64,000 nt of DNA from a virus (IMGVR_UViG_3300035698_011202:8232-72231), one strand, 5' to 3'; positions 6,901 through 63,367 are shown, counted from the stretch's first letter. Notes: a model not told the origin generated them from the letters alone. Program-made: numbers and translations.

Positions 6901-7697
6901 TCAATCTGGTCACCAATCACACCTACCACATGCAACATCGCTGTACTTGGGTGATACTCGAAGCTAGGGGTGTCGTATTTTTTATCTGAAGCCCCATAGC
7001 TGCTCAACTTACGTGTAACCAGCTCGTACCCACGCCAAATTATCGTATCAAAGATGTCTTCATCATCACTGTTAGTGTTTTTAGTCAGCGTAATTTCGTA
7101 CTGGTCACCCGTATTTGAACGCACAGGTAACTCAAACTTTAGGCTTCGGGCAAAACCACTTTGAGGGGTTTTACCTTTTATCCTAATCGCTTTAGTTTCA
7201 GAGTAACCACCACCAATTTTTGACAGCACCACCGTCAAAGTAACTTCGTGCTCTTTCACGCCGTCTTTTGAGTTGCGGTAAAGTGCTTGTGCAACTACCT
7301 GAACGTCAAGCTGGTCCCAACCATCAGGAATACTAGGCGTGGTTTTACTAATGGGCGCACCATGAACAACTTCCTGACCTACCGTTTGATTTGAGGCGGT
7401 GCCGTCAAACAAATATCTAATCGGCGTTTGACCGTCTTCACTCTCAGCAGCGGTTAACGGAGTGCCTGATTCAAAACGAATGAGTAGTTCACTTTCCTCA
7501 AAGTTAGGTTTGCCTTGGCTGTCAAAAATAGGTGTGTCATCAAGGTAGATGTGGTTTAGCTTTTCTTCCGCAGATTCACCCACAATGCCACCAATCTGTC
7601 CTTGAGCAATACCCATCACAAACTCGAAAGCGTCTGTAGAAAACAGATTGCTTCTAGCATTGCTTGGGCCGCCGCCTCCGCTGCCTTTAAATCTCAT
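3957..7697 (-). CDS. Central tail tip / host specificity protein (lambda gpJ-like)
   Basis: ~1246 aa. N-terminal GSGGGG, VPSNYNP and TDNPFWI motifs, FN3-like segments, and position after I/K/L/M-like genes. Confidence 0.85.
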   Translation of the reverse strand: MRFKGSGGGGPSNARSNLFSTDAFEFVMGIAQGQIGGIVGESAEEKLNHIYLDDTPIFDSQGKPNFEESELLIRFESGTPLTAAESEDGQTPIRYLFDGTASNQTVGQEVVHGAPISKTTPSIPDGWDQLDVQVVAQALYRNSKDGVKEHEVTLTVVLSKIGGGYSETKAIRIKGKTPQSGFARSLKFELPVRSNTGDQYEITLTKNTNSDDEDIFDTIIWRGYELVTRKLSSYGASDKKYDTPSFEYHPSTAMLHVVGVIGDQIDGLPTMNADYRGLLCRVPSNYNPRTKTYDESSAWDGLYAPERFPTDNPFWIVNELILNEVFGVISYNPNVKVNKYSVYDKAKYADGYNAFSNAKDLQNPNTSETGVARYTFNAVLSDRMSGMEFINKILATTFSVILENDDGEIEILTDMPTVPVAFITAEMAVSTSSESPFSYSYSSTSARINAVSTSFIDKDSEYATQQLPEIRNQDAIDRHGLNVTEFVSLGTTNAWEAERKALVFLVAGQTETESINFVMPLSGVQFQVYDVVAIVDPVMGHGVSGRVVSNDTFSLTVRDPIYFAESGLYSLTLQGLTEDFDATITIKDTEVGLPLRKFTLSRPYPAASSLGDYPVVHIGNRARSDKQIGFPKLYRITSIEPTDDTGLELFSISAVEFNSEKHTEADLLKQATQPQYSFQLLAPLKRVTNLVVVNESIVDTLQGTQVSAWISWDEQEDRQFGTSYRVEVFSNGTSIGRVVNTAENFTEIKGLQFAEYEFRVTAERSGTKSAVTSLTYELGRVTAADLIEENALPLMYGSFKNGILKAYADINYVVGSVTSLPVALLTGGYLSSVTFSIFDDSDGNNTFLFNTVQTQPNLILTASQFKEASQQVFLPSKLIVRVAFHDFFDERYPALAVNDHILTIEAVQALITNVVVTEQTSAFGKYLITWTDDSANYEFTLLTLTGNILKKQTLTSAEVTLETLSAGTYTFTIQPVSSDLGYGKIFTQTLVVLQKDTSDVAPNTTSSNGTITVTPPVVESKFDTYEFKTSTSDNFEIAKPVGSNTSLSFGNVIKDQIYHVWYRLVTDNNRNTTWRLTSALGTEQILYTWTAYAEDAVGTNISTSAGELTWQGLSSGHTTAQAIITDASIYTWLPLTEGETIQMVLLSDNGNYFRNNTGALKSITANIFINGVAAYDTSEYKYKWTNEGRVVYVTTSGDYVSLSPSTNLFAADGEDPQGLNFKTIKVDFTDVANGADLNLTCTVTNI

Positions 7698-7724
7698 CGT
7701 CAATCCTCATTGTATTTTTACAGC

Positions 7725-8471
7725 CTAGCGGGTAAAAGCGCCGTTCTTAGACTTGCCGCCTAGATAATAATTGTACTCAATATCAAAGTAACTCAATTCC
7801 TCAGCGTTGTGATACAAAGTGTTCCATGAATCCCAGCCTACATCCTGCTCCCATAAGTTCAAAGCGAAGCTGCTTAGCCCTGAATCTCTACCTTTCAACG
7901 ACTCGATGTTGACACTGAACAAGTGACCTCCCCATCTATGCGTCCCAAAAATCATCGGTATCACTGTGCCAGATTGTATGGTGTTGGGGTAACGCCTTGA
8001 TACGCGACTATCTTTGTCTTTTTCTTTCTCCAAAGGGTCTTGTAGCTTTTCAATAATCCCGCCAACCACTAGACCAATACCCATGGAAAAAGCCGCACTC
8101 ATAAACATCTGGCCCGCTGTCAGTATCTCGCCCGCTATAATTGCGTTACCTGTCGTAGCAAAAAAGACCACAGCTACAATTATTAGAATAATCCCGACTA
8201 TAATTCTGGCGTTGGCGTTACCCGCACCCGCCATAGTCATAGGGTTGGTCTTCTTTTTGTAACGCAGCGTCATGGTGGCATCACCGACATGCTTTACTAA
8301 ATCACGCGAGTCTTGGACTTCATCAATCACGCACTCGTAACGGTCCATTACTTTTCGAGGGTCAAAGTCAGGGTGAGTTTTCAGTGCTTCAAGAGCTTGC
8401 TTATACGTAGTCACATCAAAAGATAATTTCTTAGGCTTGCCTTTGAAGCCTACTAACTTAATGGTTACCAT
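7725..8471 (-). CDS. Tail assembly protein (lambda gpI-like)
   Basis: AGAG followed by a hydrophobic segment, then NTIQSGTVIPMIFG. Synteny supports the call. Confidence 0.75.
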   Translation of the reverse strand: MVTIKLVGFKGKPKKLSFDVTTYKQALEALKTHPDFDPRKVMDRYECVIDEVQDSRDLVKHVGDATMTLRYKKKTNPMTMAGAGNANARIIVGIILIIVAVVFFATTGNAIIAGEILTAGQMFMSAAFSMGIGLVVGGIIEKLQDPLEKEKDKDSRVSRRYPNTIQSGTVIPMIFGTHRWGGHLFSVNIESLKGRDSGLSSFALNLWEQDVGWDSWNTLYHNAEELSYFDIEYNYYLGGKSKNGAFTR

Positions 8472-9276: not shown

Positions 9277-9765
9277 TTAGACTCTCACCGATGAAAACTC
9301 AGGCTGCGCGTATCGACGAGGTGGGAAAACAATTTGGTTTCCGTCACTCGGCATTCTTAGCTCAGCCGTTATCATATGCTCTGTAATATTCGTTACATGC
9401 GACACAATAAAGACTCGTCGAGTATAGGTGCCCAACGATAGTTCTTGAGGTAGCACTCGGTACTCAACAACATCTGCGCCTTCTAGGATACGTCTTGACA
9501 CGTAGTAGGATAGGGCACCATCTTGGTTAGGTAAGTTAAGTTTAGGGCGAGATACTTCACCTGAACTGTTTTGCTGAAAACCAGCAATAAGAAAAGGATT
9601 ACTTGTCCACGTTTCACCTAGCCACGTTATAGTTGGACCATCGGTAAGGCGAAAATGAATAGGCGTAGAATCTAAGTCTAGGATTTTTATATATAGGAAT
9701 TTTATACGTTCAGAGGACGTAAGAGATTTAATCTCAGTGGTTAAACTGGGCGAAAGTGTTTTCAT
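9277..9765 (-). CDS. Minor tail protein (gpL-like)
   Basis: GFQQNSSGEVSRPKL and LEGADV motifs plus synteny. Start placed at the ATG of the TTGACGATG motif. Confidence 0.75.
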   Translation of the reverse strand: MKTLSPSLTTEIKSLTSSERIKFLYIKILDLDSTPIHFRLTDGPTITWLGETWTSNPFLIAGFQQNSSGEVSRPKLNLPNQDGALSYYVSRRILEGADVVEYRVLPQELSLGTYTRRVFIVSHVTNITEHMITAELRMPSDGNQIVFPPRRYAQPEFSSVRV

Positions 9766-9811
9766 CGTCAACTCCAAATTTTATGCTTGGAGTTTAATAC
9801 AAAGCGCAGAC

Positions 9812-9838
9812 AAAAAAAACCCCGCACTAGGCAGGGTT
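9812..9838 (-). terminator. Intrinsic terminator closing the candidate sRNA
   Basis: 8-bp GC-rich stem, 5-nt loop, run of 8 T on the minus strand. Confidence 0.85.
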
Positions 9839-9890
9839 GATACTAAATTGACGATGAGAAATGGCATCTGGCGACGCCATCAAACGAGAT
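9812..9890 (-). ncRNA. Candidate small regulatory RNA antisense to the shared translation-start motif
   Basis: Minus strand reads hairpin AUGGCGUC-GCCA-GAUGCCAU (9880-9861), single-stranded UUCUCAUCGUCAAUUUAGUAUC (9860-9839), then terminator AACCCUGC-CUAGU-GCGGGGUU with U-tail. Both stems contain a G-U pair that only works on this strand. 5' end is approximate. Confidence 0.7.
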
Positions 9891-9892: not shown

Positions 9893-9920
9893 ATATTATC
9901 ATAATGATAACGTGCGTCAA
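9893..9920 (-). promoter_or_regulatory. Sigma70-like promoter for the candidate sRNA
   Basis: TTGACG (9920-9915), 16-bp spacer, TAATAT (9898-9893) preceded by TGn (extended -10). Confidence 0.6.
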
Positions 9921-16300: not shown

Positions 16301-16694
16301 TCAGACTATCCGTGTACCGTTTTACTAAAGCAGGGTCATTTAACTTGCTGGCTAAATTGCCTAAGTTTCCTATAATCCCTTGGGCTTCAGATTGCAGCGT
16401 AGCTACGCCGCCCCGAGAAATCGCCAATGCTCTGTTTAAAGGCGCAAGCTCTGCAGCATTCAAAGCATCAATAGGTTTTCGACTCTTAGCCGACATGCCG
16501 CTAGTCAGCTTTTCGTTAGCCTTAACGACATTATTTATGTCGGTCATAGATTGCTTGACAGTACCCATGCTTAGTTCAAGGGCTTTTTGTAGCTTCTCTA
16601 ATTTTTTAGTCGCTTCGTCAACGGCTTTTTGACCGCTTTTATCAAATTTTACTTTTAATACGGTAGTACGGATAGAACTGCTGTTATCACTCAT
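10335..16694 (-). CDS. Tail tape measure protein
   Basis: ~2119 aa, helical and A/K/L-rich, with a TP901-like core (TKFTALEV...GIRSGSTLGTGLR). Confidence 0.92.
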   Translation of the reverse strand: MSDNSSSIRTTVLKVKFDKSGQKAVDEATKKLEKLQKALELSMGTVKQSMTDINNVVKANEKLTSGMSAKSRKPIDALNAAELAPLNRALAISRGGVATLQSEAQGIIGNLGNLASKLNDPALVKRYTDSLTKGVSEITGKMVSSPAIKRAISQSTRSFLNEEIRRNPNLAKKESKFSDARTSAMSASDLKAQRQATAVYLKGATKANNAANNTGDTAFAKSSARLKGLFENQLAALDKETGSRKAFIAEQKRVFNSPEAKAKRKQDEKVRAANSTSITKTSAVRLAADINAREGKKRVVRGAARLDLGAKSPAELRRLSRDVSAYEKVVNAQVKNAPEGTQLRSQIDLRKQQISALKEGIVTQRESNAAAKVFYNSEPEKAKRKLSRANSSDLKQEVSARSKADSRVSEGARFARGLGDQSINMKSKGELTQIRNNLKEFARTVNQQVKNAPEGSDLRKQIDTQLASIRQSDKRVETQQQKNKAQIDASNSTQFKNDLKLQRDNNTTLLRETENRLAGDRFARAGKEGLNKSLVGLSSSELNELKKSAGDYANVVKGLIKSSSATSVVFDQATAELKRIERRLEQIKIKQNYRPAQTEIGRAQTSSARSLLAADERRRMDNGAGMFKQQAQLLRNYAVMGTGISLITQSGQFMVQLEKEMKQLQSIVALTNTEMQGLSKTLVAVSEKTKFTALEVTQAAVVLGQAGFGKDQIADSIEGITLFATAVGANLSEAVDLATSTMGIFNRDARDMGNIADKLTTAVNSSKLNLNKLALGLQYAGNIAAQSNVSFEETVAALGAMANSGIRSGSTLGTGLRQILIALQKPSEEFVRTTQLLGLSMSDLDISTNGLIPVLKKLSQSGFTVTDAMRTMQVRAAAAFGAFANNIDVADELAEKMEIGGAAARANAIQMESFANQFARLGSTFFSVTSEAFDPLLKSGTALVSTLADMLSGLKDVGGALSVIGSIAGGAAIGALVVSFGKLAIGLAAGGRAIAAILGIGSTVSGDGDRRPLNSNRLQRDNTRSSLNTARRAAMGTSALTVALRFLAGKVTLVLAAIGGLLGGIAYLADSFNDDAKLKDVVDKATAEENDAKSRQIASRDSIKALNKTLQNIATNEVKLSKDTDMLASTIKRVNSEFKALGLYIPDSVKDYKGLFDAVKTFKDEENASLDLALVDGGKASARTSNAIIQEQLPLKGENSAVAIFEKASRKLTGNTGERDRSERGPVGSGRIELGDFTTSLRDTSKIVTGLTQQYNQLAFTDKDGNVDKDKVAEGKSILDKILSVEGNLRDVFIREGNVQQYATETGLNGDVFKKYGKDFTDALQSIIFAISTSQTGFENNLTNSEANVINRRELTTLGDDAVTGGMLQLEQATKAFTSNISSVYQNVLKLDERDDLKAYTSMGENETTVLAELDRLTNNFKTTLRDRPLTGDELRKVLEAQNVDPLQIQNLLSNPELTSNQVREVLIQSGLDPKNNDNNKIIESTATGNGLSPQELQEAFVSTGFNEVVNAIILSLSVGFKNIATEAKFAKDLDFKNRGAILDAQMGTINKELSTSASAERLNVLADEKELLQAKISAIAREKEDFAGRLNDQGPQSKGVATRLTQQEAISSKAETQLIIDKNLFTQKFAKSLDGKNTNLDTKDRDYEETDGLRLIKSFTEAQESKIEKASELAKAEVIALKQTEEVFEARISELQKITTGGDKYTNQFKEASLEEQQLVTQQLIDKREERAKAEIDLTTEAIRARKVLIEYLESLVASNPDLAVDSGIDGSGLNKTIKEQIVKQAQAQKDLADDNKNQSDTNLDNKKTSDELGTIVRDLKANQFDDDVRRRLFAAMTGEGFNPLGDETTDTTYVPKNGQDTPEGILENVAGGFRGINDLLMQSLDNFDPLTEAMKGLNDVAQDLASNFAQAFTAFANGTLSGSEAFKAFTISILESMLDIASEIAANALLKGILQMVAGAGFGGMFSPTGTTMAGNPSTNMNGGMNAWNGGEQFAGSYAGGGEITRGMSTRDSTFAKVAKGEFVLRRKAVQSLGIDTVKALNSADPNLIDRQAEKLGGNPMAQQKDSGSKEVNVYVVSPEQMPSSLGANDVVHIIADNLTRGGVTKQLVKRINMGTL

Positions 16695-16710
16695 CGTCAA
16701 TCTCCAAATT

Positions 16711-17109: not shown

Positions 17110-17372
17110 TCAAGAAAGTCGATCAAATGGTCCGTGTCTATTTCTAATTCATTAATAGCAAACTCTTCGGTTATTTTTCCATATTGGTCACGCTTAGATA
17201 GACACAATAAAAGTATGTCTAGTCGAACGGTAGCGTTGGTAAAGGTTTCTGAAATTTGTTGTGGGTTTTCGAATATGGCACTTAATGTGTTGAGCAATCC
17301 AAAAGACATAAACAGTTCTTTTTGTGTATCACCACAGGTCAAAGTAAAGCGAGGGGCTAGTTTATCAGTCAT
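17010..17372 (-). CDS. Tail assembly chaperone (gpG-like)
   Basis: Lies between the tail tube and tape measure genes, with a slippery run near its 3' end. Confidence 0.75.
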   Translation of the reverse strand: MTDKLAPRFTLTCGDTQKELFMSFGLLNTLSAIFENPQQISETFTNATVRLDILLLCLSKRDQYGKITEEFAINELEIDTDHLIDFLDWVESHISYFFLRAWEKSIASSIKRTEAIKKSI

Positions 17373-17394
17373 CGTCAATCCAAATTATAAGTAT

Positions 17395-17440: not shown

Positions 17441-18274
17441 TTACACAATAGGTGCAGTAACCGTGTCAGTTAGTAACTCAGCTACTTTGTTCTTGAACTG
17501 AGCATAGAACGGGTCACCGCTAATAGGCTTCATAGGCATAAATTCGAACGGGACGTTACCGAAGTTATCAGTTGTAAACGACATAGTTAATCCTGAACTC
17601 ACACGAATTTTAGGAATTAACAATACGATGAACTGTCCATCAGCCAACTGACCCTGCACTTTAGCAGAGTAATAACGGTCAGTATCGGTAGAACCAATAT
17701 CTAATACGTTAACCAGTGACACGCGAGTACCTGCAGCAAAGCTACTTACTGAAACAACATCTGGCATAGAAACCGTCATGGTTGCGCTTGTAGAAGTGTT
17801 GCCAGAAATACCAGAAACAGCCGTAGCTGTACCCGCAACAATCTTATCCGTAGAAGGGTCACGCAATAATACGCGGCTACCAAGGGTAATGTTCTGAATG
17901 TCAGCGGCATCTTCAAACGAAAGGTCTACTGAGCCAGCTGAGAATGATGCTGTCCCTGAAGTTTCCAACGCTTTTTGAGGGGCTGAAATTAAGCCTGAGC
18001 CTTCTAATCCTAACGCATACGCTAAGTTCTGAGTAGTATACTCGTACATTTCAAAAGAACCCCGAGTCGTTTGACCCGTAGTTAATGAAACGATAATGTC
18101 GTTGGTACGACCTTGTGTTAGCTCGGTTTGGTCTTTAGTTGCTTCAATACTGAAGTTTTTTACCAAGCCTACGCCATGCTGCACAGGGTTTAAATTATAC
18201 ACGTCTTCTGGGTTGCCGATCATTACTTCGGCAGTACCCAACATGAATTTCTGTGATTTAGCATTTCCGCTCAT
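17441..18274 (-). CDS. Major tail tube protein
   Basis: 277 aa upstream of the chaperones and followed by a terminator. VGLVKNFSIE and DNFGNVPFEF segments. Confidence 0.8.
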   Translation of the reverse strand: MSGNAKSQKFMLGTAEVMIGNPEDVYNLNPVQHGVGLVKNFSIEATKDQTELTQGRTNDIIVSLTTGQTTRGSFEMYEYTTQNLAYALGLEGSGLISAPQKALETSGTASFSAGSVDLSFEDAADIQNITLGSRVLLRDPSTDKIVAGTATAVSGISGNTSTSATMTVSMPDVVSVSSFAAGTRVSLVNVLDIGSTDTDRYYSAKVQGQLADGQFIVLLIPKIRVSSGLTMSFTTDNFGNVPFEFMPMKPISGDPFYAQFKNKVAELLTDTVTAPIV

Positions 18275-18339
18275 CGTCAATCTCCAAATTTTGATTTAGT
18301 TAGGTTATAATCAATACCTCAACAAAGGAGCGAAAGACG

Positions 18340-21169: not shown

Positions 21170-21178
21170 CGTAAATCC

Positions 21179-22759: not shown

Positions 22760-22786
22760 CGTCAATCTCCAAATTTTAAATTGTTC

Positions 22787-24369: not shown

Positions 24370-24443
24370 CGTCTATCCAAATTTTAAAGGCAAGCCTTAT
24401 TAGCTGTATTAAAAACATTATTTACGAAAATAATCAACCCTAC

Positions 24444-25889: not shown

Positions 25890-25903
25890 CGTCAGTCCAA
25901 TTT

Positions 25904-40918: not shown

Positions 40919-40949
40919 ATTAACACCACTCAAAAACTAGGAATTGACG

Positions 40950-42798: not shown

Positions 42799-42953
42799 TT
42801 ACCGACCAGCAGAAGGAGAAAGAATTAGCCTTGTACAACCAAGGTTATGAAAAAGGTGTAAAAGATACAGCTGTCAGCTGTGCTTATATTTTATTAATTG
42901 GATTTATGGTGCTGGCTTTTTTATAGCTCACCCAAAACAACTTGGAATTGACG

Positions 42954-43448: not shown

Positions 43449-43464
43449 AAAATTGGAATTGACG

Positions 43465-43990: not shown

Positions 43991-44023
43991 ATTTTAGTAA
44001 TTAACTACAATTAGGAATTGACG

Positions 44024-44203
44024 ATGAGAAATCATTTTGAACAAAACGAGTACGTCCGACTTGTTAACAGTCCCAGTAAAGTCTACGTGGTAATAGTCCA
44101 AAACGGGTCTAGGGTTTCGGTTAAACGTGAATACTACCAGACCCCAGAGGTCGTTGCGTTACGAAGCGAGATTATTGACCGAAGTTTATTGGAGCGCCTG
44201 TAA
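44024..44203 (+). CDS. Small hypothetical protein
   Basis: Start motif and TAATG overlap with the next gene. Confidence 0.7.
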   Translation: MRNHFEQNEYVRLVNSPSKVYVVIVQNGSRVSVKREYYQTPEVVALRSEIIDRSLLERL

Positions 44204-46379: not shown

Positions 46380-46394
46380 AATTTGGAATTGACG

Positions 46395-50170: not shown

Positions 50171-50187
50171 GACTACGGAAATTGACG

Positions 50188-50997: not shown

Positions 50998-51041
50998 GTG
51001 CTGAGTGGGGACTCCCCACTCAATTACAATTTGGATTGACG

Positions 51042-53927
51042 ATGATAAGCAAAATTAACGAATACACAGGGTTGGTTGAACAGCTAGTTGACGCTAGAAA
51101 TATGGAATATCTGAGTATCGCTCTTGACCGTATCAAAGAACAGCAGGGTAAAGCTTTCGTAGGTTTTGATATTGAGACTGAGGATAGCCAGCGTCACGAT
51201 GGACTCAATCGGCTAATGAACGTAGATGCTCATAGCCTACGCTACAAAAAACCCACTAAGTTAATGTTCGACATTCCTAGAACTAACGTCACAGGGTTCT
51301 CGTTCTACATAAAAGGCGAAGATATTGTTTACTACGTGAACACTAAGCATTTTGACGTAGAAAACAGAATACCTTTTGCGCTCACCAAATGTTTTATAGA
51401 AGAGTTACGAGACAATGCCACTTTAATTATCCATAACTATACGTTTGAAAGAACTATGGTGCTTGCGGATTGGGGTATTGACCTTGGCAAGAACTATATC
51501 GATACGCTTCAAATGGCCGTGTCAGCTTACAACGATGACCAGTATGATATTGCGGCTTTTAAGCAGCGAAATCTTGGTGAGATAGCTAAACTGGTGCCTG
51601 AAATAAAGAAGCATTTTAAAGGATTTGACCCTAAAGTGCCGCTTAGTGCTGAGCAGTTCGAGGTGGTTAACAAGGTCGTATCTAAAGACTCCAAAGCCGA
51701 TCATAGTTACAACGGTTATGTACGGTCTATGAATTACGGTTATGGTTTAAAAGTCTGTACCGAGCGTTTGTTTGGTTACAAGCAAGACTCGTTTGAGGAC
51801 TGCCTACAAGGTAAGGCTCACATGGGTATGCTAACAGGTGAAGAAGTGTTGCATTATGGTGCTGATGACTCCTATTGGTGTGTCAGGTTGTTCGATTGGC
51901 TTTTAGAGTTTATGAGTAAGACTAACCCAGCTGTCATACAAACCTTCTTTGAGCAAGAGAACCCAATGCCTTACATCTTTAGTGATTGTTGGTCTAGGGG
52001 TTGGAGAGTTAACCGTGAGGCGATTGAGAGAAGAAACATTCAAGAGCGTGTTAACTATGTAAGGGCATTACGAGATTTAGCGGAATTATTGAACGGTTAC
52101 ACGTACATATTTCCTGATGGAAACCCAGCCATGCTAGAAAAACAGCCCAAATGGTATAGCGGCAAAGAGGGTGAGTCCTTTCAAAAGTACCGCGAGAAGT
52201 TAGAGTTTTTCAAAAGTGGCTACCAGTTATTGCTGCAAGAGCAAGGTGTAACCACGCTAACCAACGAGCGCCTAGAGTCTAATGAAATGTTAGGCTTTGA
52301 CCTTTGCCAATTATCCAGCGGTAGTGTCCCCGCAGCTTGGCGGGTAGAAATGAAGAACGCGCCAGTGAAGAAGGACTTAGATAAGCGCCCCAATCTTATG
52401 CACTATATGGTACAGCGGGTGCTGTTACATGATTTATGCAATCTCCCGTTCATTTATATAAAAGGTAAAGTGTCTACGAACGGCGAGGCACGAGGTAAAA
52501 TGATGCAAAAGGCTGAAGACCTAGCTTCTATGCCTAATGCGTGGCTTGAGTATTGGGATAAATACAAATCACTGACCCAACTAACGCCTATGGAGCGCCA
52601 GCTAACGGCTGAACATCTGTCAAACGAGTACGATGCAGACAAGGTGCAAAACATCATCCGTTGTCTGAATACGTTGGTTGGTATTGACCAGCGCATTAAG
52701 CTATTCATTACTAATTACAGGTGCATGATTGATCCTAATACCGACCGCATTCACCCTGTACTAAGCTCCAAGCTAAACACTAGGCGTATGGCCTCACAGA
52801 ACCCTAATGCGATGCAGTTAGCCAAGCGAGGCGACTCTGCGTACATTCGCGGGTTCTTCCAAGCAAACCACGATGACCACCTAATTATCGCGGTTGACTG
52901 GTCACAGGTAGAGCTAGTGTTGATAGGAGAAGAGTCCTCAGACCCTAACTTTGCTAAAGCATTTGGTCAGTTACCTTACGAAGACTTACACACGGCAGCG
53001 GCAAAATCCGCGTTAGAAGTATTTTATCCTAATTTTAGTGACGAATTATTTATGGGTTTGAAGATGGGAGATGCCAGCGCCATCCAAACTATTCAAATAG
53101 ATTTTCCCAAGGTGTTAATTAACCCTGTAGAAAATGAGCCGCTAGAACCTAGCTATGCCTTTAAGTTTTGGCGTAGCGAAGCGGGGAAGCCTAGTAACTT
53201 TGGTTACTGGTATTCAGGCTCACTGATGACGGTGCAAGAAAAGCTAGGTTGGACTAGCAAGGAAATGTGGGCCGGTACTGAGAACTACCGAATGGTGTTT
53301 GAGATAGCAGAGCATTGGCGGCTCAAGGTTATTGAGAATGTTAAGAATAAGGGTATCACTACACTTAGAGACAATCACCAGAGAGTACGTTATGAAGCTA
53401 CTGATGAGTGGGTTTATGACTTTGTAGCTAAGTTCTCAGCCCACGGAAATAACGATTTATCTATGTTTGGTTATCACTGTGCGAAGAAGATACAACGTCG
53501 TGCCCACAACCAAGCAGTCAACGCAAAAATACAAGGTGGGTGTGCCACGCTAGCCAAGCGCAGCATTATACCTCTGCATAAAGAAATACACGAAGAAGGT
53601 AAGTGGGACGCAGAATTTTTGATGCCTATTCACGATGAATTAGTGTTTAGCGCCCACCACAGTCAGGCTGTAGATTTCTCATATCGTATCTTAGAGGTCA
53701 TGTGTGACCACCCAACCGTAGTCAAGAACTTGAAGCTAGACGGCACCATTTCTATTGGTAAAACCCTAGAGCCATTTCACCCTGTCAACGCCCCGTATGG
53801 GCAGATAGAGCTTGATGAAGCGCCCTTTATTGATGGTGTTATACCTAAAGAATATGTGAAGAAATCATTGCCTAGAGAAATTAGACAAAAGGTAGTTGAT
53901 TACCTAAGAAGAGGCAGTTATGCGTGA
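51042..53927 (+). CDS. polA: Family A DNA polymerase with 3'-5' exonuclease
   Basis: FDIET, HNYTFE, DWSQVEL (motif A), KPSNFGYWY (motif B), IQG and IHDEL (motif C). Confidence 0.95.
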   Translation: MISKINEYTGLVEQLVDARNMEYLSIALDRIKEQQGKAFVGFDIETEDSQRHDGLNRLMNVDAHSLRYKKPTKLMFDIPRTNVTGFSFYIKGEDIVYYVNTKHFDVENRIPFALTKCFIEELRDNATLIIHNYTFERTMVLADWGIDLGKNYIDTLQMAVSAYNDDQYDIAAFKQRNLGEIAKLVPEIKKHFKGFDPKVPLSAEQFEVVNKVVSKDSKADHSYNGYVRSMNYGYGLKVCTERLFGYKQDSFEDCLQGKAHMGMLTGEEVLHYGADDSYWCVRLFDWLLEFMSKTNPAVIQTFFEQENPMPYIFSDCWSRGWRVNREAIERRNIQERVNYVRALRDLAELLNGYTYIFPDGNPAMLEKQPKWYSGKEGESFQKYREKLEFFKSGYQLLLQEQGVTTLTNERLESNEMLGFDLCQLSSGSVPAAWRVEMKNAPVKKDLDKRPNLMHYMVQRVLLHDLCNLPFIYIKGKVSTNGEARGKMMQKAEDLASMPNAWLEYWDKYKSLTQLTPMERQLTAEHLSNEYDADKVQNIIRCLNTLVGIDQRIKLFITNYRCMIDPNTDRIHPVLSSKLNTRRMASQNPNAMQLAKRGDSAYIRGFFQANHDDHLIIAVDWSQVELVLIGEESSDPNFAKAFGQLPYEDLHTAAAKSALEVFYPNFSDELFMGLKMGDASAIQTIQIDFPKVLINPVENEPLEPSYAFKFWRSEAGKPSNFGYWYSGSLMTVQEKLGWTSKEMWAGTENYRMVFEIAEHWRLKVIENVKNKGITTLRDNHQRVRYEATDEWVYDFVAKFSAHGNNDLSMFGYHCAKKIQRRAHNQAVNAKIQGGCATLAKRSIIPLHKEIHEEGKWDAEFLMPIHDELVFSAHHSQAVDFSYRILEVMCDHPTVVKNLKLDGTISIGKTLEPFHPVNAPYGQIELDEAPFIDGVIPKEYVKKSLPREIRQKVVDYLRRGSYA

Positions 53928-54896: not shown

Positions 54897-54913
54897 CAAC
54901 TAGGAAATTGACG

Positions 54914-55531
54914 ATGAGAACACATACCTTGACCCCTTTACCCTTCAAGTACCTTACAGAAGTGACGTATAAAAAGCTTTATAACGATATTATTGAGTTC
55001 AGAACGCTGTTTGATTTACCTATCGATAAAAAAGTACTAAGCCGTGACGAGCACCGTTTACATTGTGATTTATTTTGCGAAGAGCAGGGGGAGTTAGCCC
55101 TCGCCACAAACCGAGTAGACAGCATTGATGCAGTAATTGACTCGGTTTACGTATACATGGGCGCACTGGTTCATATAGGAAAGCCTTGGGAAGTTTTAGT
55201 CGCTTGCTCACCTTTAATTGCTTATCCCTTAGAATCGATGCTCGGTTCAGCTGAAGAAATGGGGTTTGATTTTGTAGAAGCATGGGATATTGTTCATAGC
55301 AGTAACATATCAAAGCTTTGCACAGCGGATAATGTTGACCAAACCTCTCAAGTGTACAAATCTTTAGGGGTGTCGGTAGTTACTGAGCTAGCTTTCAACA
55401 ATATCCATAAAGGTGCTAAATATAGGGTTAAAGTTGCTCGTCATTGCAAAGACTATCATGGGAAATTCTACCCCCAAGGCAAGGTTTTAAAGAGCATTGG
55501 CTATACTCCGGCGATTTTAACGGGTCTGTAG
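54914..55531 (+). CDS. MazG-like nucleoside triphosphate pyrophosphohydrolase
   Basis: EEQGEL, DAVIDSVYV, VHSSNISK and GKVLKS motifs. Confidence 0.8.
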   Translation: MRTHTLTPLPFKYLTEVTYKKLYNDIIEFRTLFDLPIDKKVLSRDEHRLHCDLFCEEQGELALATNRVDSIDAVIDSVYVYMGALVHIGKPWEVLVACSPLIAYPLESMLGSAEEMGFDFVEAWDIVHSSNISKLCTADNVDQTSQVYKSLGVSVVTELAFNNIHKGAKYRVKVARHCKDYHGKFYPQGKVLKSIGYTPAILTGL

Positions 55532-55558
55532 TACTGAACACAACAATTTGGACTGACG

Positions 55559-58500
55559 ATGACAAACAAACTAATTCCGTTAACCGTTTTTACAGCCCAT
55601 AAGGGTGTTCTAACCAAAACCATAACCAGACAGCATGGAAAGTTCAATGCTGATCCTCCAAAACTTGCGTCCGGTTTAGCTAGAACAGCGTGGGTCACGC
55701 TTGCCGAGCTTCCTAAGTTTATTAAAAGCCTAAAAATCTCTGAGTGTTTTACACTTGGAGTTTTTGATTTAGGCGATGAAATTACCGAAGTCATCACAGT
55801 ACCTGAGTTCGATCGTCGCGGTTACACCTACCCGATAGAAGTCAACGAAACGGGACGGTATGGCACTAGGGCTAAGAAGTCGATGCAACAAACTCAAAGA
55901 ACGTTATTGTTCTTTGATTATGACCATGACCCATCAGACCCTAACGTTATCGAGAACCCTGAACACTTTATAGCTCTTTTGGATAAAGCAGTTCCAGAGT
56001 TAAGCATAGCTGATACTACTTACGTAAGAACCTATTCTACATCCCGAGGTTTGTACCGAAAGTCAGATGATGTTTGTCTTAAACCGGCAAACGGGTTTCA
56101 CATCTACTTCGAAATAGAAGATGGCGCTGACATTGAACGCTTTGTAAAAATGTTAGAGCGACGCTGTTGGACTAAAGGTTTAGGCCACATAAAAATATCA
56201 GCGAACGGACAACTGTTAGAGCGCGTTATTTTTGACAAGCTAGTCTTCCAACCTGAAAGAATGTGTTTTGAAGCCGGTGCTTTTATTCCTGAAGACCAAG
56301 ACTTCTACCAAAAACTACCGGATGCTGAGTACATAGAAAAGCCTTTACTAGTTTTAGATACGCATAAAGTAATTGATTTATCAGTTGAAGCGTTGCGTGA
56401 TATAGAAATCACAATCGCTAAGATAAAGCACAGCGATGCCGTCCAAGACTTAATGGATGACTATCGTGATAAAGCTACGCAGCACAAGATGAGTCAGGCT
56501 CACTTGACGGGTAGACTGATGACGCCCAAGCAAGCTTACGAGCAAGTGGTTAACGAAGAAAAGTTACTGCTACATCCAGATGACGTACTTTACTTTGAGG
56601 ATGGGCGTACCGCCACAGTAAGAGAGACAGTCATTTATTCAGAGCAGTACGATGGATGTGGTTTAAAAGACCCTATACGATTAGACAAGGGTTATTCTAA
56701 AGCGAAATTTTACGCTAACCGTGATCATGCTCAAGTACCTCATCCCGCTATTCATAGCTTTATAAACGGTGGGCGAACGTTCAAGTTAGAGGACGCGGTA
56801 ACCTATTACGATAACCGTGAAAAAATTGAACAAAGCTCTTTGTCAGACCTGTGCGACATGCCTGAAGTCTTTGACGCTAAGTATTTACCGGACTTTCAAC
56901 TTAAAAAAGGGCTTACGTTAATCAAGAGTGCCAAGGGTACAGGTAAAACATCTACGCTTGCTAAGAAGATAGGCCCAGAGTTGATGGGGCGCGTTATTAG
57001 CTTGAACCAGTTAGTATCGTTAGTAGGGGCGTTGTGCCTTAAATTTGACCTTGAAAACTACAATGACTTGCAAACTAAAGAAGGACGTAGCTTACACACA
57101 GCAGCAAGATTAGGTATTTGCTTGAACTCTATTCATAAGATACGTGGTAACCGTTACGACGTAGTAATCATGGATGAATTTACACAGTTACTACGATCCA
57201 TTAAATCAGACACTGTGCGCTATCCTGCGGCGTGTTTGCAAGTTATGAGAGAAGTCATTGCCGCAGCATCATACGTTGTGTGTATGGACGCTGACTTGAC
57301 CTCAGAGTACGTTGAGATGTTTCGTCACCCTGAGTTTGGATTGATTAGAAACGACATACCCGTAAACGTGGTGGAGAATCTTTATAGGCCACCGGCAATC
57401 GAAGAGCGCAAAGTGGTCTTGTACCAAGATTCACAAGACAAACCTGACCACGCTGCGTTTACTGAGAAGCTTGTATTAACGGGTATAAAAAACGAAGAAG
57501 GTTTCTTTTATGCCAGTAACTCTAAGGCTGATGTTATTAAAAAAGCGTCATTACTTATTGGTAAATTAGGTGGTGAATCGATCTTAGAAGAAGAGCATTT
57601 TATTACTGAGATTGCAGGGCGCAGAGTAATTACGGTTACCTCTAACAACTCGCAGCTTAAAGAAACACAAGATTTTATTAAGAATCTAAACACTCAGCTA
57701 CGCCCCACCGATATGTTTTTATCTAGTCCAAGTATGGGAACAGGCCATTCGATAGATATGGTTGATGGCTTACCGTTGTTTGACAAATGTTTTGGGTACT
57801 TTACTAGTCGAGCAGGTAATTTACCTTCTGACTGCACCCAGCACATAAGTCGCGTTAGAGGGTGTAACGAACTGCACATCATTTACACGCAGGTTTCTTT
57901 AAATTTACCTGAAGACAAAACCCTAATTATGAACCAACATATTTACGGTCGCTCTAACATGGTTGACTCTCTTAGTGCGTTCAACAAGTTTGGCAAGCAC
58001 GTCATGGATAATCTCACCAACTCGTTTAAATACGAAGATTTTGGTTATGCCAATTGGTACGTGGGCCTAACAAGTCATGAGAACAAGCTAAAAAACTCTT
58101 TTGGTCTTAACCTTCTTGTTCAACTACAAACGGAAGGCTATCAGATAAGTCATAACTATTATGCAGAAGGCATGGGACACGGTGCAGGGTACTTAGCCGA
58201 GATGAAGTTAACTGCTGAATCTATGCGAGAGCTTAGCCGTGAGAAAATTTGGAGTACGCCTTTAATCAGTGACCTAGAGTTCGAGTCTCTAAATAATTCT
58301 GTGTACCAAACACCGGATGAAAAACGAGAACTGTTTAAGAAGCGTCAAGCCAATTACTTTGGCTTTGAAGAAGACTGTCAATTGCTAAATGAAATAGCTA
58401 CCTCATCAGCGGGAAGGTTAGCAGGATTAAAAGCAGGCGTGATGCTGGGGGCCGACCCTATTCACTTGCTAGTGATGGACGTAAATACCCGATTAGACAG

Positions 58501-59065: not shown

Positions 59066-59142
59066 TTAATCTAGTAATTTATAATCATCGTCTTATTCAC
59101 TAACAGAATAAAGTGTACACAAAACTGCGAGGCATTAGGACG

Positions 59143-59604
59143 ATGAAAGATAATCAAACTTTAGATAAATTAATACATAACAGAACACACTTCGAGCATG
59201 ACTACGAAGTGTGGTTTTATATTATTAAATATTTGCGAGAAAATGATTACAAGATAAGTGGGTACAAACCCATGTCTGTTAAAATGTACAATCAAATTAG
59301 AAATGTTATTTCACCAAAAAAACTTTCATCAAAGGATTTGTATAGAGGCATAGGATTCCACGTAAATAGTATTGCATATTTAAAAACTATCAAAACGGGA
59401 CAAAAGAGATGGAATTTATTTGGAAAGCCAGATGGGAAAGTTACGCAAGCTGAATCTGACTTTGCGTTACAACAAATGGCTTTAGTACACCCTGCCTATA
59501 TGAGAAGTTTACGTAAGGCTAGGGCCGGAAGACAGACCCTTATGGTAGAAAAAAAGGGTAGGAAATTAGTTCTAAACAAGGGTAAAATAGATACCGGCTC
59601 CTAG
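59143..59604 (+). CDS. ProQ/FinO-family RNA-binding protein
   Basis: KPMSVKM...LYRGIGFHVNSIAYLKTIKTGQKRWNLFGKPDGKVTQAESDFA matches the FinO-domain pattern PLxxGI...YL...GxxRxxLxGxxxGxVT. Confidence 0.8.
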   Translation: MKDNQTLDKLIHNRTHFEHDYEVWFYIIKYLRENDYKISGYKPMSVKMYNQIRNVISPKKLSSKDLYRGIGFHVNSIAYLKTIKTGQKRWNLFGKPDGKVTQAESDFALQQMALVHPAYMRSLRKARAGRQTLMVEKKGRKLVLNKGKIDTGS

Positions 59605-59627
59605 TAGTATCACAATTCGGATTGACG

Positions 59628-60059
59628 ATGACAAAAACACTGAGTACAGCAAAGTGGGCTGAGAACTATTTCGAAGATGCCTTTAACCAGAAAAAAGCCA
59701 ATGTATTCAGGATACCAGATTACTCAGATATAAATTTTGGGGCTAACAGCGGCAAACAAAATGTTGCTGTTGATCCTAAACCCGCTGACTTTTTAATTAC
59801 CTACTCCAAACAAACTTTCTATGCCGAAGTAAAAACAGTTGAAAAAGCAAAAGCGTTTTCCTTTTCAGGTATTCGTCCTGCTCAATGGAAAGCGGCGTTA
59901 AAGACCATCCGTAATGGTGGTAAATATTACTTTGTAATTTATTTTAAACACAATGCTCAGTGGTATTGGGTTCCAGCCCGTATCATATTAGAAAGCAGCA
60001 AACAGTCCTTAAACTTAGAGGACTTAGAAATTTACAAGGTTCATAAAACTTTTATGTAA
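59628..60059 (+). CDS. RecU-like Holliday junction resolvase
   Basis: PADF, YAEVKT and IRPAQW PD-(D/E)xK pattern. Confidence 0.8.
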   Translation: MTKTLSTAKWAENYFEDAFNQKKANVFRIPDYSDINFGANSGKQNVAVDPKPADFLITYSKQTFYAEVKTVEKAKAFSFSGIRPAQWKAALKTIRNGGKYYFVIYFKHNAQWYWVPARIILESSKQSLNLEDLEIYKVHKTFM

Positions 60060-60079
60060 CTACAATTAGGAAATTGACG

Positions 60080-61063
60080 ATGACAAACAAAACAATGCCA
60101 CAGGTACAAACATTAGGCGACCCGCATTTAGGAAAGGTTTTTAAAACAGGCGTACCGATTCACCGATTAGATGAGCGAGAAGGCTTAGTTCAAAAAGACT
60201 TTATAGCTAATTTAGTACCTAAAAAAGGTGTGACCCTGCATGTTTGTATGGGAGATTTATTTGACAAGTTTAGAGTACCCGAAGAAATTATCTTGTTTGC
60301 CGCCCACGCTTACAAAGAAGCCAGCCTTAAAAACCCCACTGTATTGTATGTAATTATACGTGGCAACCACGATGCAAGCCGAGATGTAGCATTGAAGTCT
60401 AGCTTTGACGTGTTCAAAGAAATTGTCTGGGGGCTAGATAATATTTATGTGGTTTGTGACGAACCTTTAACTATTGACAACGAGGGTGTTACTCACTGCT
60501 TCTATCCATGGCATCCGTTTATTAATGCTAAACAGATGGTGGAAACTATGCTCCCGCCGAAGGGTGCATATAGTTATGGGCATTGGGATGTAGCGTCGTT
60601 TGGTGAAGACAGCAGCTCACTAAGTAATATGATACCGCTTGAGTTTTTCAAAGATGCCGAGCTAGTTACCACAGGTCACTATCACCTTGCTTCGAATAAA
60701 GTTATGCAAGGGGTGCCGGTTATGGTTACAGGCTCCATGCAGCCGTACTCACATGCTGAAGACTTGGAGGGTACTCATTACGTGACTATCTCAAAAGAAG
60801 ACGCGCTGTTAGCGCCTAGAGCCTTAAAGAATCTAAATGTTCGTATCTTACTAGAATCAGGAGAAACGCCTTTCGGGGATTTAGACTGCTTCAGCCTTAC
60901 CTTTAAAAAGCTCGCAGCGGATGCTGCCCCTGAGCTTGTGGTTGACATCGATAACTTCGACATAGCTGATATTTTTCAGACAACGTTTGCTGAGTTCAAG
61001 GTTGGCAAAGAATTAACAGACAGCTTGTGGGCAAGCTTCACGGAGATAAACGCTAATGATTAG
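60080..61063 (+). CDS. SbcD/Mre11-like metallophosphoesterase nuclease
   Basis: GDPHLG, GDLFD, GNHD and GHYH motifs. Confidence 0.9.
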   Translation: MTNKTMPQVQTLGDPHLGKVFKTGVPIHRLDEREGLVQKDFIANLVPKKGVTLHVCMGDLFDKFRVPEEIILFAAHAYKEASLKNPTVLYVIIRGNHDASRDVALKSSFDVFKEIVWGLDNIYVVCDEPLTIDNEGVTHCFYPWHPFINAKQMVETMLPPKGAYSYGHWDVASFGEDSSSLSNMIPLEFFKDAELVTTGHYHLASNKVMQGVPVMVTGSMQPYSHAEDLEGTHYVTISKEDALLAPRALKNLNVRILLESGETPFGDLDCFSLTFKKLAADAAPELVVDIDNFDIADIFQTTFAEFKVGKELTDSLWASFTEINAND

Positions 61064-63083: not shown

Positions 63084-63121
63084 TGAGTGGGGACTCCCCA
63101 CCTTACAATTAGGAATTGACG

Positions 63122-63367
63122 ATGACACCAAACGAGCACATTAATTTTATAGCCCAAGGGTTTGCCAACAAATACCAAAAGCCTTTGTTGACCATAGACG
63201 ATTTAGCAGAAGTATTATCGATTACCAAAGCGACAATCATTCAATATATTTCAAGAGAAACCTTTCCTATTCCGCTAATCAGAGTGGGGCGAAACTGGTT
63301 TGTTAGTTCGCTAACCCTTGCTACTTATTTAGTTTCACAAGAAGGAAATGCTGGTGCATACCGTTAA
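63122..63367 (+). CDS. Excisionase / AlpA-like HTH protein
   Basis: LLTIDDLAEVLSITKATI...FPIPLIRVGRNW, next to the integrase. Confidence 0.8.
   Translation: MTPNEHINFIAQGFANKYQKPLLTIDDLAEVLSITKATIIQYISRETFPIPLIRVGRNWFVSSLTLATYLVSQEGNAGAYR

What the first reader, a model, noticed from the sequence alone, without database searches (positions are those of the whole stretch)
7695..63124. Near-invariant start-associated sequence AATT(T/A)GGA(A/G)ATTGACG-ATG-A
By manual count there are 23 exact TTGACGATG starts and 7 variants, always with zero spacing to the ATG and on the coding strand of both arms. The base after ATG is A in nearly all cases and G in the rest, so it can always pair with the sRNA U. 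Genes whose start overlaps the upstream stop generally lack the motif. RBS spacers are not normally conserved like this. The closest precedent I know is the start-associated sequences of cluster K mycobacteriophages. An alternative is a site for a phage translational activator or repressor protein. The motif also explains the artefactual MTM/MELTM starts in the ORF track.
Basis: seen in the sequence. Interest (0 to 1): 0.75.

Follow-up and report, generated by a model that had tools for sequence, protein, structure and literature searches.

The report
Phage start-site tag with matching sRNA
About thirty genes of this temperate phage begin with the same short sequence, and the phage also carries a small RNA gene whose exposed middle is the exact complement of that sequence, so one RNA could probably damp translation of most phage genes at once.

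Summary
TTGACGATG occurs 27 times in the window against 0.32 expected. It sits on the coding strand of both arms. It marks 28 of the 41 gene starts that stand 4 nt or more after the previous gene, and none of the 26 overlapping starts.

The tag is a GGA Shine-Dalgarno core, a fixed spacer and the AUG. One copy lies on the opposite strand at 9848. There the transcribed strand holds a sigma-70-like promoter, a 5' hairpin, an unpaired UCAUCGUCAAUUU and a terminator with U8, making an RNA of about 75 nt.

The same small-RNA locus lies upstream of the minor-tail gene in all 14 low-GC relatives examined. Tag and seed change together (TTGACG, TCGACG or TTGACA; spacing 0 or 2 nt). The tag variants that are tolerated follow G-U wobble rules. 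These phages carry integrases and a FinO/ProQ-domain protein.

Best reading, at 0.6: the tag is the shared target of a phage antisense sRNA that represses translation, perhaps as RNA immunity in lysogens. Expression is untested, because no RNA run holds this phage.

The parts
9812..9886 (-). Candidate small RNA (about 75 nt): 5' hairpin, unpaired seed UCUCAUCGUCAAUUUAGUAUCA complementary to the tag, then a terminator hairpin and U8.
   Evidence: Sequence. Fold: MFE -24.9 kcal/mol, z -3.2, seed unpaired. Homologues. Alignment A4. No Rfam family matches.
9893..9920 (-). Sigma-70-like promoter of the sRNA: TTGACG, 16 nt, TAATAT, with TG before the second hexamer.
   Evidence: An equivalent site at the same relative place is found in 3 of 4 relatives scanned. 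The fourth, G005, fails the scan.
9818..9838 (-). Intrinsic terminator hairpin of the sRNA, followed by a T run.
   Evidence: In the family alignment the stem has 11 pairs, 7 of them with compensatory changes.
9848..9856 (+). The only tag copy on the non-coding strand of the minus arm. It is the DNA complement of the sRNA seed, not a gene start.
   Evidence: The ORFs on that strand are not conserved across 7 phages: 6 to 54 aa.
7695..7703 (-). Tag at the start of the central tail fibre J-like gene (1246 aa).
9763..9771 (-). Tag at the start of the minor tail gene (162 aa), just downstream of the sRNA.
16692..16700 (-). Tag at the start of the tape measure gene (2119 aa).
17370..17378 (-). Tag at the start of a 120-aa gene upstream of the tape measure gene.
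18272..18280 (-). Tag at the start of a 277-aa gene (phrog_28493).
22757..22765 (-). Tag at the start of the major capsid gene (403 aa).
21167..21175 (-). Variant tag TTTACGATG at the start of a 229-aa gene.
24367..24375 (-). Variant tag TAGACGATG at the start of a 392-aa gene.
25887..25895 (-). Variant tag CTGACGATG at the start of the portal gene (481 aa).
33388..33396 (+). Tag at the start of a 60-aa gene.
34492..34500 (+). Tag at the start of a 176-aa gene.
35085..35093 (+). Tag followed by only a 16-aa ORF.
35648..35705 (+). Two orphan tag copies (35648, 35697) between GGTGTGACACC-type palindromes. The first is the longest complement to the sRNA seed outside the sRNA gene, 17 nt.
37472..37480 (+). 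Tag at the start of a 500-aa gene.
38986..38994 (+). Tag at the start of a 459-aa M28 peptidase-like gene.
40661..40669 (+). Tag at the start of an 83-aa gene.
40944..40952 (+). Tag at the start of a 167-aa gene.
42948..42956 (+). Tag at the start of a 164-aa gene.
43459..43467 (+). Tag at the start of a 50-aa gene.
44018..44026 (+). Tag at the start of a 59-aa gene.
46389..46397 (+). Tag at the start of a 231-aa gene.
50182..50190 (+). Tag at the start of a 269-aa exonuclease-like gene.
51036..51044 (+). Tag at the start of the family A DNA polymerase gene (961 aa).
54908..54916 (+). Tag at the start of a 205-aa pyrophosphohydrolase-like gene.
55553..55561 (+). Variant tag CTGACGATG at the start of the 1168-aa origin-binding/helicase-like gene.
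59137..59145 (+). Degenerate tag AGGACGATG at the start of the FinO/ProQ-domain gene.
59143..59604 (+). FinO/ProQ-domain protein (153 aa), the candidate chaperone of the sRNA.
   Evidence: Pfam PF04352, E 3.4e-10, 40.3 bits against a cut-off of 27. Homologues in relatives.
59622..59630 (+). Tag at the start of the Holliday junction resolvase-like gene (143 aa).
60074..60082 (+). Tag at the start of the SbcD-like gene (327 aa).
63116..63124 (+). Tag at the start of an 81-aa HTH_17 (excisionase-like) gene.
63625..63999 (-). C-terminal part of a tyrosine integrase, cut by the end of the record. It marks the phage as temperate.
   Evidence: PF00589 match at G000 71895-72080, above the cut-off.

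Best explanation
The motif is a composite translation-initiation tag. It has an A/U-rich stretch, a GGA(G/A) Shine-Dalgarno core, the fixed spacer (A)TTGACG and then ATG-A.

I read its unusual invariance as maintained because it is the common pairing site of a phage-encoded trans-acting small RNA. That RNA is about 75 nt, lies at window 9812-9886 on the minus strand, and has its own sigma-70-type promoter and intrinsic terminator. Its single-stranded seed is complementary to positions -9 to +4 or beyond of every tagged gene.

Pairing across the spacer and the start codon would block 30S binding. One RNA would then repress translation of nearly all independently initiated phage genes. Genes downstream in translationally coupled runs need no tag.

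The phage's FinO/ProQ-domain protein is the likely chaperone or stabiliser.

The sRNA gene has the self-contained layout of a moron inside the tail operon, and the phages carry integrases. I therefore infer that it is expressed from the prophage. There it would silence leaky phage transcripts and the genes of a superinfecting phage that bears the same tag. A burst of tagged mRNAs on induction would outrun it.

Shown: the tag, the complementary RNA gene architecture, and their co-variation across relatives. Inferred: expression, repression, the chaperone role and the immunity role.
For: 1. Architecture of the sRNA locus. The minus strand of the 180-nt gap 9766-9945 holds TTGACG-16-TAATAT, a 5' hairpin, an unpaired seed, and a terminator with U8.

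2. Conservation of the locus. The same unit lies upstream of the minor-tail gene in 14 of 14 low-GC relatives where that region was fetched: the window, KB12-38, G001, G005-G010, G012-G014, G016 and G017. It is absent in G019 and Lumi, which also lack the tag.

3. Structure. In the alignment of 11 sRNAs the seed is the most conserved block, and the terminator stem has compensatory changes at 7 of 11 pairs.

4. Co-variation following wobble rules.
- Where the sRNA has A opposite hexamer position 2, TCGACG is found at 0 of 27, 39, 38, 23 and 20 tagged starts.
- Where it has G, both TCGACG (14) and TTGACG (14) occur in G005, and 8 of 8 are TCGACG in G009.
- Where it has U opposite position 6 (KB12-38), TTGACA (13) and TTGACG (4) occur. 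Where it has C, TTGACA is never seen.
- The commonest hexamer-to-ATG spacing equals that of the sRNA complement: 0 in the window, G008 and G009, and 2 in G001 and KB12-38.

5. The reverse strand is not a gene start. In G005- and G006-type phages the complement of the seed has no ATG, and in the window it has no GGA. ORFs there are 6-54 aa and not conserved.

6. Excess of seed-complementary sites. In each phage's own genome they number 34, 43, 47, 37, 11, 26 and 31, against shuffled-seed means of 1.8-4.6. Between 77% and 86% of them sit at the starts of ORFs of 40 aa or more.

7. Duplex energies with the window seed. The mean is -19.4 kcal/mol for 23 exact tags, -7.4 for 41 untagged starts, and -7.1 for shuffled seeds.

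8. The base at +4 is A or G in 28 of 28 tagged starts, which can pair with the seed U. In untagged starts it is A in 20 of 41.

9. FinO/ProQ gene. It is present in the window, G001, G006, G008, KB12-38, G012, G013 and G017. It is absent in the sRNA-less G019.

10. Temperate lifestyle. An integrase is found in 5 of 5 records searched and in G006 and KB12-38. G006, G007 and G017 are flagged as proviruses.
Against: - No expression data exist. The promoter, RNA ends and size are predictions, and the G005 promoter fails the scan.
- The antisense locus is itself a reversed copy of the tag. Part of the co-variation could therefore come from whatever homogenises all tag copies, not from pairing.
- The upstream half of the window's motif (AATTTGGA) is conserved although the window's own sRNA does not pair there. 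Part of the motif therefore answers to another constraint, most simply the Shine-Dalgarno and A/U-rich ribosome contacts.
- Some variant tags break pairing: CTGACG, ATGACG, TAGACG, TTTACG and TTGACT account for 10 of 11 variant sites in the window and G008.
- 13 of 41 independently placed starts have no tag.
- Repressing early and late genes alike has no obvious logic during lytic growth.
- One sRNA against about 30 abundant mRNAs can only work at low mRNA levels.
- G005 (81% complete) shows no ProQ gene.
Confidence: 0.6

Rival explanations
1. The tag is primarily a translation signal read by the ribosome, a host factor or a phage protein (activator or repressor). The complementary sRNA merely exploits or modulates it, or regulates only one neighbour such as the minor-tail gene.
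For: - A GGA core lies 6-9 nt before the ATG with an A/U-rich stretch upstream.
- The window's upstream half is conserved without sRNA pairing.
- The tag is absent exactly where translational coupling makes an independent initiation site unnecessary.
- Cluster K authors left open RNA or protein binders for their comparable motif (passages).
Against: - A ribosome- or protein-read signal does not predict that tolerated variants follow G-U wobble against each phage's own sRNA. It also does not predict that close relatives differ in hexamer and spacing in step with that RNA.
- No candidate RNA-binding repressor other than the FinO/ProQ protein was found.
- The host 16S rRNA could not be examined.
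Confidence: 0.2
2. The repeats are copies of a mobile or homogenised regulatory cassette (hairpin, promoter, RBS), kept alike by recombination. The spacer is conserved by descent, not by selection.
For: - In the plus arm 7 tags lie 11-61 nt after a shared palindrome GTGGGGA(C/G)TCCCCAC.
- Relatives show longer shared upstream strings such as TAATTAACTTAAAATTTGG.
Against: - Information content peaks sharply at the spacer and ATG and falls upstream.
- The minus-arm tags have no hairpin.
- The GGA-to-hexamer distance varies while the hexamer-to-ATG distance does not.
- Homogenisation does not explain the promoter- and terminator-flanked reverse copy or the wobble pattern.
Confidence: 0.1
3. TTGACG or TTGACA is the -35 hexamer of sigma-70 promoters that fire into each gene.
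For: The hexamer equals or nearly equals the -35 consensus used by the scan tool, and KB12-38 uses TTGACA.
Against: - Only 1 of 15 exact tag copies in 33000-52000 is the first hexamer of a promoter-like site.
- Promoter-like sites there (36) are not above shuffles (39.6).
- A transcript started about 30 nt downstream would lack the start codon.
Confidence: 0.03

Closest known systems
Start-associated sequences (SAS) of cluster K mycobacteriophages (PMC3203893, passages read)
   Same: - A short asymmetric repeat containing a Shine-Dalgarno core.
- Present in 11-19 copies, a few nt before mostly ATG starts, in one orientation.
- Rare in other phages and, for SAS, absent from the host.
[quoted passage not shown] This mirrors the single reverse copy here, which is the sRNA gene.
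   Different: - The sequence differs (GGGATAGGAGCCC).
- SAS lie 3-7 bp from the start, whereas this tag abuts it.
- SAS are confined to the non-structural half, whereas this tag is on both arms.
- Phages and hosts are unrelated.
- The SAS function is stated as unknown in that paper, and no sRNA was proposed for the reverse copy.
c4 antisense RNA of phages P1 and P7. Seen as described in the review PMC12197685 (passages) and as the title of Citron and Schuster 1992 in a reference list. Further details are recalled.
   Same: A phage-encoded RNA of about 77 nt pairs around a ribosome binding site and blocks translation. Seed and target differences give heteroimmunity between related phages.
   Different: - c4 acts on one operon (ant).
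- By recall, it is processed from the same transcript as its targets.
- Here the RNA has its own promoter and terminator, and its target is repeated at about 30 gene starts on both arms.
FinOP fertility inhibition of F-like plasmids, and FopA/Inc (review PMC9977716, passages read)
   Same: A FinO-domain protein is encoded by a mobile element together with an antisense RNA that ends in a terminator hairpin and pairs with a ribosome binding site to repress translation.
   Different: - FinP and Inc are cis-encoded opposite a single target.
- Here the RNA is trans-encoded with many targets.
- Binding of the phage protein to this RNA is not shown.
STnc6030 of Salmonella prophage BTP1 (review PMC12197685, passages)
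   Same: A prophage-expressed RNA pairs with a phage structural-gene mRNA and gives superinfection exclusion without blocking induction.
   Different: It is a 786-nt cis-antisense RNA against one gene (tailspike). There is no repeated tag.

Membership tests
Cluster K start-associated sequence (SAS) | 13-bp consensus GGGATAGGAGCCC | tested here: not met
   The window tag is (A)TTGACG-ATG preceded by GGA(G/A).
Cluster K start-associated sequence (SAS) | Lies within a few nt of mostly ATG start codons, in one orientation | tested here: met
   Spacing is 0 in 26 of 27 tagged starts, all ATG and all on the coding strand.
Cluster K start-associated sequence (SAS) | Restricted to the non-structural half of the genome | tested here: not met
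   9 tagged starts are in the structural minus arm, including the capsid, portal and tape measure genes.
Cluster K start-associated sequence (SAS) | Absent or very rare in the host genome | not testable with these tools
   The host is unknown.
Cluster K start-associated sequence (SAS) | A single reverse-orientation copy not at a gene start | tested here: met
   Window 9848 (+). In Anaya the reverse copy is at 59871-59881, in the gp96-gp97 gap.
Trans-acting base-pairing sRNA (Hfq/ProQ type) | Own promoter and Rho-independent terminator enclosing 50-300 nt without a conserved ORF | tested here: met
   Promoter-like sites were found in 4 of 5 loci scanned and terminators in 5 of 5 (one search is the miss). 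ORFs are not conserved.
Trans-acting base-pairing sRNA (Hfq/ProQ type) | Conserved single-stranded seed complementary to target initiation regions | tested here: met
   The seed is unpaired in the window fold and in the consensus fold. Complement counts are and duplex energies. In KB12-38 the seed is partly paired in the MFE structure.
Trans-acting base-pairing sRNA (Hfq/ProQ type) | The RNA is made in cells | not testable with these tools
   No RNA run holds the phage.
FinO/ProQ-assisted antisense control | FinO/ProQ domain protein encoded by the element | tested here: met
   PF04352, 40.3 bits against a cut-off of 27. Also present in 7 relatives.
FinO/ProQ-assisted antisense control | Antisense RNA encoded opposite its single target (cis) | tested here: not met
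   The sRNA gene is separate from its roughly 30 targets.
FinO/ProQ-assisted antisense control | The protein binds the RNA's terminator hairpin | not testable with these tools
   No RNA-protein test is on offer.
P1/P7 c4-type antisense immunity | Antisense RNA pairs at a ribosome binding site, and specificity differs between heteroimmune relatives | tested here: inconclusive
   Pairing and three specificity types are seen in sequence. Immunity itself is untested.
Sigma-70 promoter (-35 element) | A -10 hexamer 16-18 nt downstream of the hexamer | tested here: not met
   1 of 15 tag copies in 33000-52000.
Shine-Dalgarno ribosome binding site | Purine-rich core 5-10 nt before the start | tested here: met
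   GGA lies 6-9 nt before the ATG in the tagged starts.
Shine-Dalgarno ribosome binding site | Spacer complementary to the host 16S rRNA tail (extended SD) | not testable with these tools
   The host and its rRNA are unknown.

The most novel reading that the evidence does not exclude
A clade of temperate marine and saline siphoviruses barcodes nearly every independently translated gene with one start-site tag. Each phage carries a single sRNA, with a phage FinO/ProQ chaperone, that reads the barcode.

This would be an RNA-based, genome-wide immunity system. It would silence the prophage's own leaky messages and the genes of any superinfecting phage of the same tag type. New immunity types would evolve by paired seed and tag changes (TTGACG, TCGACG, TTGACA; spacing 0 or 2).

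Orphan multi-site RNAs (window 31190-31290 and 35648-35705) might act as sponges that lift the block on induction.

The long-unexplained start-associated sequences of cluster K mycobacteriophages also have exactly one reverse copy per genome. They may work the same way.
Probability: 0.3. Interest if true: 0.9.

Novelty: new variant of a known kind. Interest (0 to 1): 0.8.

Why it matters
Antisense RNAs that block one ribosome binding site are classic in phages and plasmids. An sRNA whose target is written into 30-45 start sites of its own genome would be post-transcriptional control on a different scale: in effect a master switch for a whole virus.

It would give a sequence-readable immunity type for a group of uncultured temperate phages. 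It would assign a function to phage-borne FinO/ProQ proteins.

It would also give a concrete, testable hypothesis for the cluster K start-associated sequences. Their function was left open in 2011 (PMC3203893).

My literature searches found no description of such a system (and passages). They cover open-access papers and bioRxiv only.

Tried and rejected
- Near-identical phages: megablast of 20 kb against GenBank phages found no match.
- tRNA scan and Rfam scan: nothing found.
- RNA polymerase search: PHROGs and Pfam on the large unknown proteins (567 aa, 500 aa) found none, so a phage-RNAP promoter reading was dropped.
- Sigma-70 -35 reading: rejected.
- Expression: no RNA holder is listed for the phage. 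Twelve DNA runs, all labelled salt lake metagenome, hold parts of it.
The motif's frequency at host starts was therefore not measured.
- Extra sRNA homologues by DNA pattern in IMG/VR: 27 stretches matched, of which only the 2 from G001's own contigs were real.
- Minor-tail protein scans found few close relatives. The capsid scan was what opened up the clade.
- A first alignment of three sRNAs used wrong G001 coordinates and was replaced by A4. G007, G014 and G016 were left out of A4 as near-duplicates of G006 and G012. No covariance model was built.
- At the low threshold of 22 that score does not separate signal from shuffles, so only threshold 26 is used.
Only the window and KB12-38 folds and the consensus fold exist.
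A stem-search script replaced them.
- Earlier findings were not open.
- The Citron and Schuster 1992 paper is not held.
- Supplements of the cluster K paper (site tables) could not be seen.
Full report
**What the window is.** It is bases 8232-72231 of a 72,231-bp IMG/VR virus record that is 89% complete.

PHROGs and Pfam show a siphovirus.
- The minus arm (1-28141) carries terminase, portal, capsid, tape measure and tail genes.
- The plus arm (28153 onward) carries primase, helicases, a family A polymerase, SbcCD-like nuclease, a resolvase and a FinO/ProQ-domain protein.

No RNA polymerase, tRNA or Rfam family was found.

The last ORF (63625-63999, minus) is the C-terminal part of a tyrosine integrase cut by the record end.

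The nearest named relative is Pseudoalteromonas phage KB12-38, with 52% capsid identity and a syntenic genome.

**The observation.** TTGACGATG occurs 27 times against 0.32 expected.
- 22 copies abut the ATG of an ORF of 50 aa or more, always on the coding strand.
- 1 copy precedes a 16-aa ORF.
- 2 copies are orphan intergenic copies.
- 1 copy is inside the capsid gene.
- 1 copy is on the wrong strand of the minus arm.

Five more starts carry one- or two-mismatch versions.

The hexamer-to-ATG distance is fixed at 0 in 26 of 27 starts. The distance from GGA to the hexamer varies from 0 to 3 nt.

The base after the ATG is A in 26 and G in 2 of 28 tagged starts, against A in 20 of 41 untagged starts.

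None of the 26 starts that overlap or nearly touch the upstream stop has the tag. 28 of 41 starts with a gap of 4 nt or more have it (with one row reclassified). These are my own gene calls, and a few starts were chosen with the tag in view.

**The wrong-strand copy is a small-RNA gene.** Read on the minus strand, the 180-nt gap between the minor-tail gene and the gene after the tape measure contains, in order:
- TTGACG-16-TAATAT, a sigma-70-like promoter.
- A 9-bp 5' hairpin.
- A 21-nt unpaired stretch holding UCAUCGUCAAUUU.
- An 8-bp terminator hairpin followed by U8.

The fold has z = -3.2.

KB12-38 has the same unit at the same syntenic place, and its unpaired stretch is the complement of its own tag, GGATTGACA.

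**Relatives.** A capsid-based scan of IMG/VR gave 104 relatives. I read the capsid start in 38 loci.
- 19 loci have the tag or the G001 form of it. All have 39-47% GC.
- 19 loci have none. All have 52-66% GC.

The minor-tail region was fetched for 14 low-GC records. All 14 hold the promoter-seed-terminator unit. G019 (56% GC) and Lumi lack both the unit and the tag.

In an alignment of 11 sRNAs the seed is the most conserved block. The terminator stem keeps pairing through compensatory changes at 7 of 11 pairs.

Promoter-like sites were found in the right place in 4 of 5 loci scanned and terminators in 5 of 5.

**Co-variation.** Tag types differ between phages and match each phage's own seed.

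| Tag and spacing to ATG | Phages |
|---|---|
| TTGACG, spacing 0 | window, G006, G008 |
| TCGACG, spacing 0 | G009 |
| TCGACG and TTGACG mixed | G005 |
| TTGACG-AT-ATG (spacing 2) | G001 |
| TTGACA, mostly spacing 2 | KB12-38 |

The informative point is the asymmetry.
- A seed G tolerates both C and U in the tag: 14 and 14 sites in G005.
- A seed A is never opposite C: 0 of 147 sites in five phages.
- A seed U tolerates A and G: 13 and 4 sites in KB12-38.
- A seed C is never opposite A.

By my hand count from the table, 27 of the 44 variant hexamers are wobble-compatible with the phage's own seed. Leaving out G005, it is 13 of 29. Only 2 of the 18 possible single changes to the hexamer would be wobble-compatible.

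This is what RNA-RNA pairing predicts. A protein site or a DNA-level repeat does not predict it.

**Is the locus just a reversed tag with a tiny gene?**
- In G005- and G006-type phages the complement of the seed has no ATG.
- In the window the complement has no GGA.
- The ORFs on that strand are 6-54 aa and unrelated.
- The promoter and terminator point the other way in every case.

I therefore reject that reading. I note, though, that common descent of all tag copies still weakens the independence of the co-variation.

**Strength of pairing.** Ungapped seed-complement sites at score 26 or more number 34, 43, 47, 37, 11, 26 and 31 in each phage's own genome. Shuffled seeds give means of 1.8-4.6.

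Cross-tests show three specificity groups.

In G005 and G006 the complementarity runs for 18-20 nt over the A/U-rich stretch, GGA, the spacer and AU(G). In the window it runs from about -9 to +4, or +9 at the longest sites.

Duplex energies for the window seed:
- -19.4 kcal/mol on average for the 23 exact tags.
- -15.3 for the 5 variant tags.
- -7.4 for the 41 other starts.
- -7.1 for shuffled seeds.

**Context.** These phages are temperate.
- An integrase is present in 5 of 5 records searched, and also in G006 and KB12-38.
- Three records are flagged as proviruses.

A FinO/ProQ-domain gene accompanies the system in 8 records. It is missing from G019, which has no sRNA, and from the incomplete G005.

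According to a review read in passages (PMC9977716), FinO-family proteins typically bind terminator hairpins of antisense RNAs and promote pairing at ribosome binding sites.

**Mechanism proposed.** The tag is a ribosome binding site whose spacer and start are held constant because they are the landing pad of the sRNA. Pairing there should block initiation.

The sRNA gene has a self-contained promoter and terminator inside a late operon, and the phages are temperate. This suggests expression from the prophage, silencing of stray phage messages, and exclusion of same-tag phages, with titration by the mRNA burst on induction.

These functional steps are inferred. No RNA run holds the phage.

**Rivals.**
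- A ribosome or protein signal with an incidental sRNA: 0.2.
- A homogenised cassette: 0.1.
- A -35 promoter element: 0.03. Only 1 of 15 copies has a downstream second hexamer.

**Comparison with known systems.**
- The layout resembles cluster K SAS, but this tag fails the SAS sequence and genome-half criteria.
- The mode of action resembles P1/P7 c4, FinOP and BTP1 STnc6030. Those have one target each.

Searches of the open literature found no sRNA aimed at a tag repeated across a phage genome.

**A lead beyond this clade.** The cluster K paper says each K1 phage has one reverse SAS copy that is not at a gene start.

In Anaya that copy lies in the 385-bp gp96-gp97 gap. The forward-strand RNA there would carry the anti-SAS, and the region folds with z = -4.2.

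I did not follow this further.

Noticed in passing
window 31190-31382 (+): 3.4 tandem 30-bp units each contain a tag-like GACGATGAG. A strong plus-strand terminator follows at 31354-31382. The scan finds no sigma-70-like promoter. This could be a sponge RNA for the sRNA, iterons of an origin, or a repetitive micro-ORF. G006 has a comparable unit without an ORF (a TTGACA hexamer read by eye, then a tag, then a terminator).
   Followed up: partly
window 35584-35760 (+): Four GGTGTGACACC-type palindromes are interleaved with three or four tag copies that have no real ORF, upstream of the 567-aa gene. The 17-nt site at 35645 is the best complement to the sRNA seed outside the sRNA gene. KB12-38 (41494, 41549) and G001 (6747, 6772) have similar paired orphan sites. 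This is possibly the leader of an early operon under both protein and RNA control.
   Followed up: partly
window, 11 sites between 31692 and 63101 (plus arm only): The palindrome GTGGGGA(C/G)TCCCCAC is repeated at 11 places, with a close variant near 33361. No T run follows it. 6 copies lie 11-61 nt upstream of a tag, and 3 are inside genes. KB12-38 and G001 have their own different palindromes in the same role. It could be an operator, an RNA stabiliser or a processing site.
   Followed up: partly
window 63625-63999 (-): C-terminal fragment of a tyrosine integrase, cut by the end of the record, next to an HTH_17 excisionase-like gene (63122-63367). The phage is temperate.
   Followed up: yes
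window 35763-37466 and 37478-38980 (+): Two adjacent large paralogous proteins (567 and 500 aa, about 24% identical to each other) have no Pfam or PHROG match. A relative is found in G009 only.
   Followed up: partly
window 18340-18651 (+): A 103-aa ORF on the plus strand inside the minus arm has AAGGAG and a tag-like AAGACGATG before its ATG. It overlaps a weaker minus-strand ORF (18300-18554). It is possibly a moron gene.
   Followed up: no
L199+L200 (Mycobacterium phage Anaya) 59682-60066: The single reverse-orientation SAS copy of this cluster K phage lies in a 385-bp non-coding gap. The forward-strand RNA would carry the anti-SAS GCCUCCUAUCC, and the region folds with z = -4.2. This is the same 'many sense tags, one antisense copy' layout as in the window.
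   Followed up: partly
G005 (L177-L180): This relative uses two tag hexamers side by side: TCGACG at 14 starts and TTGACG at 14 starts. TCGACG predominates in the structural arm. Its sRNA has G at the matching position and can pair with both.
   Followed up: yes
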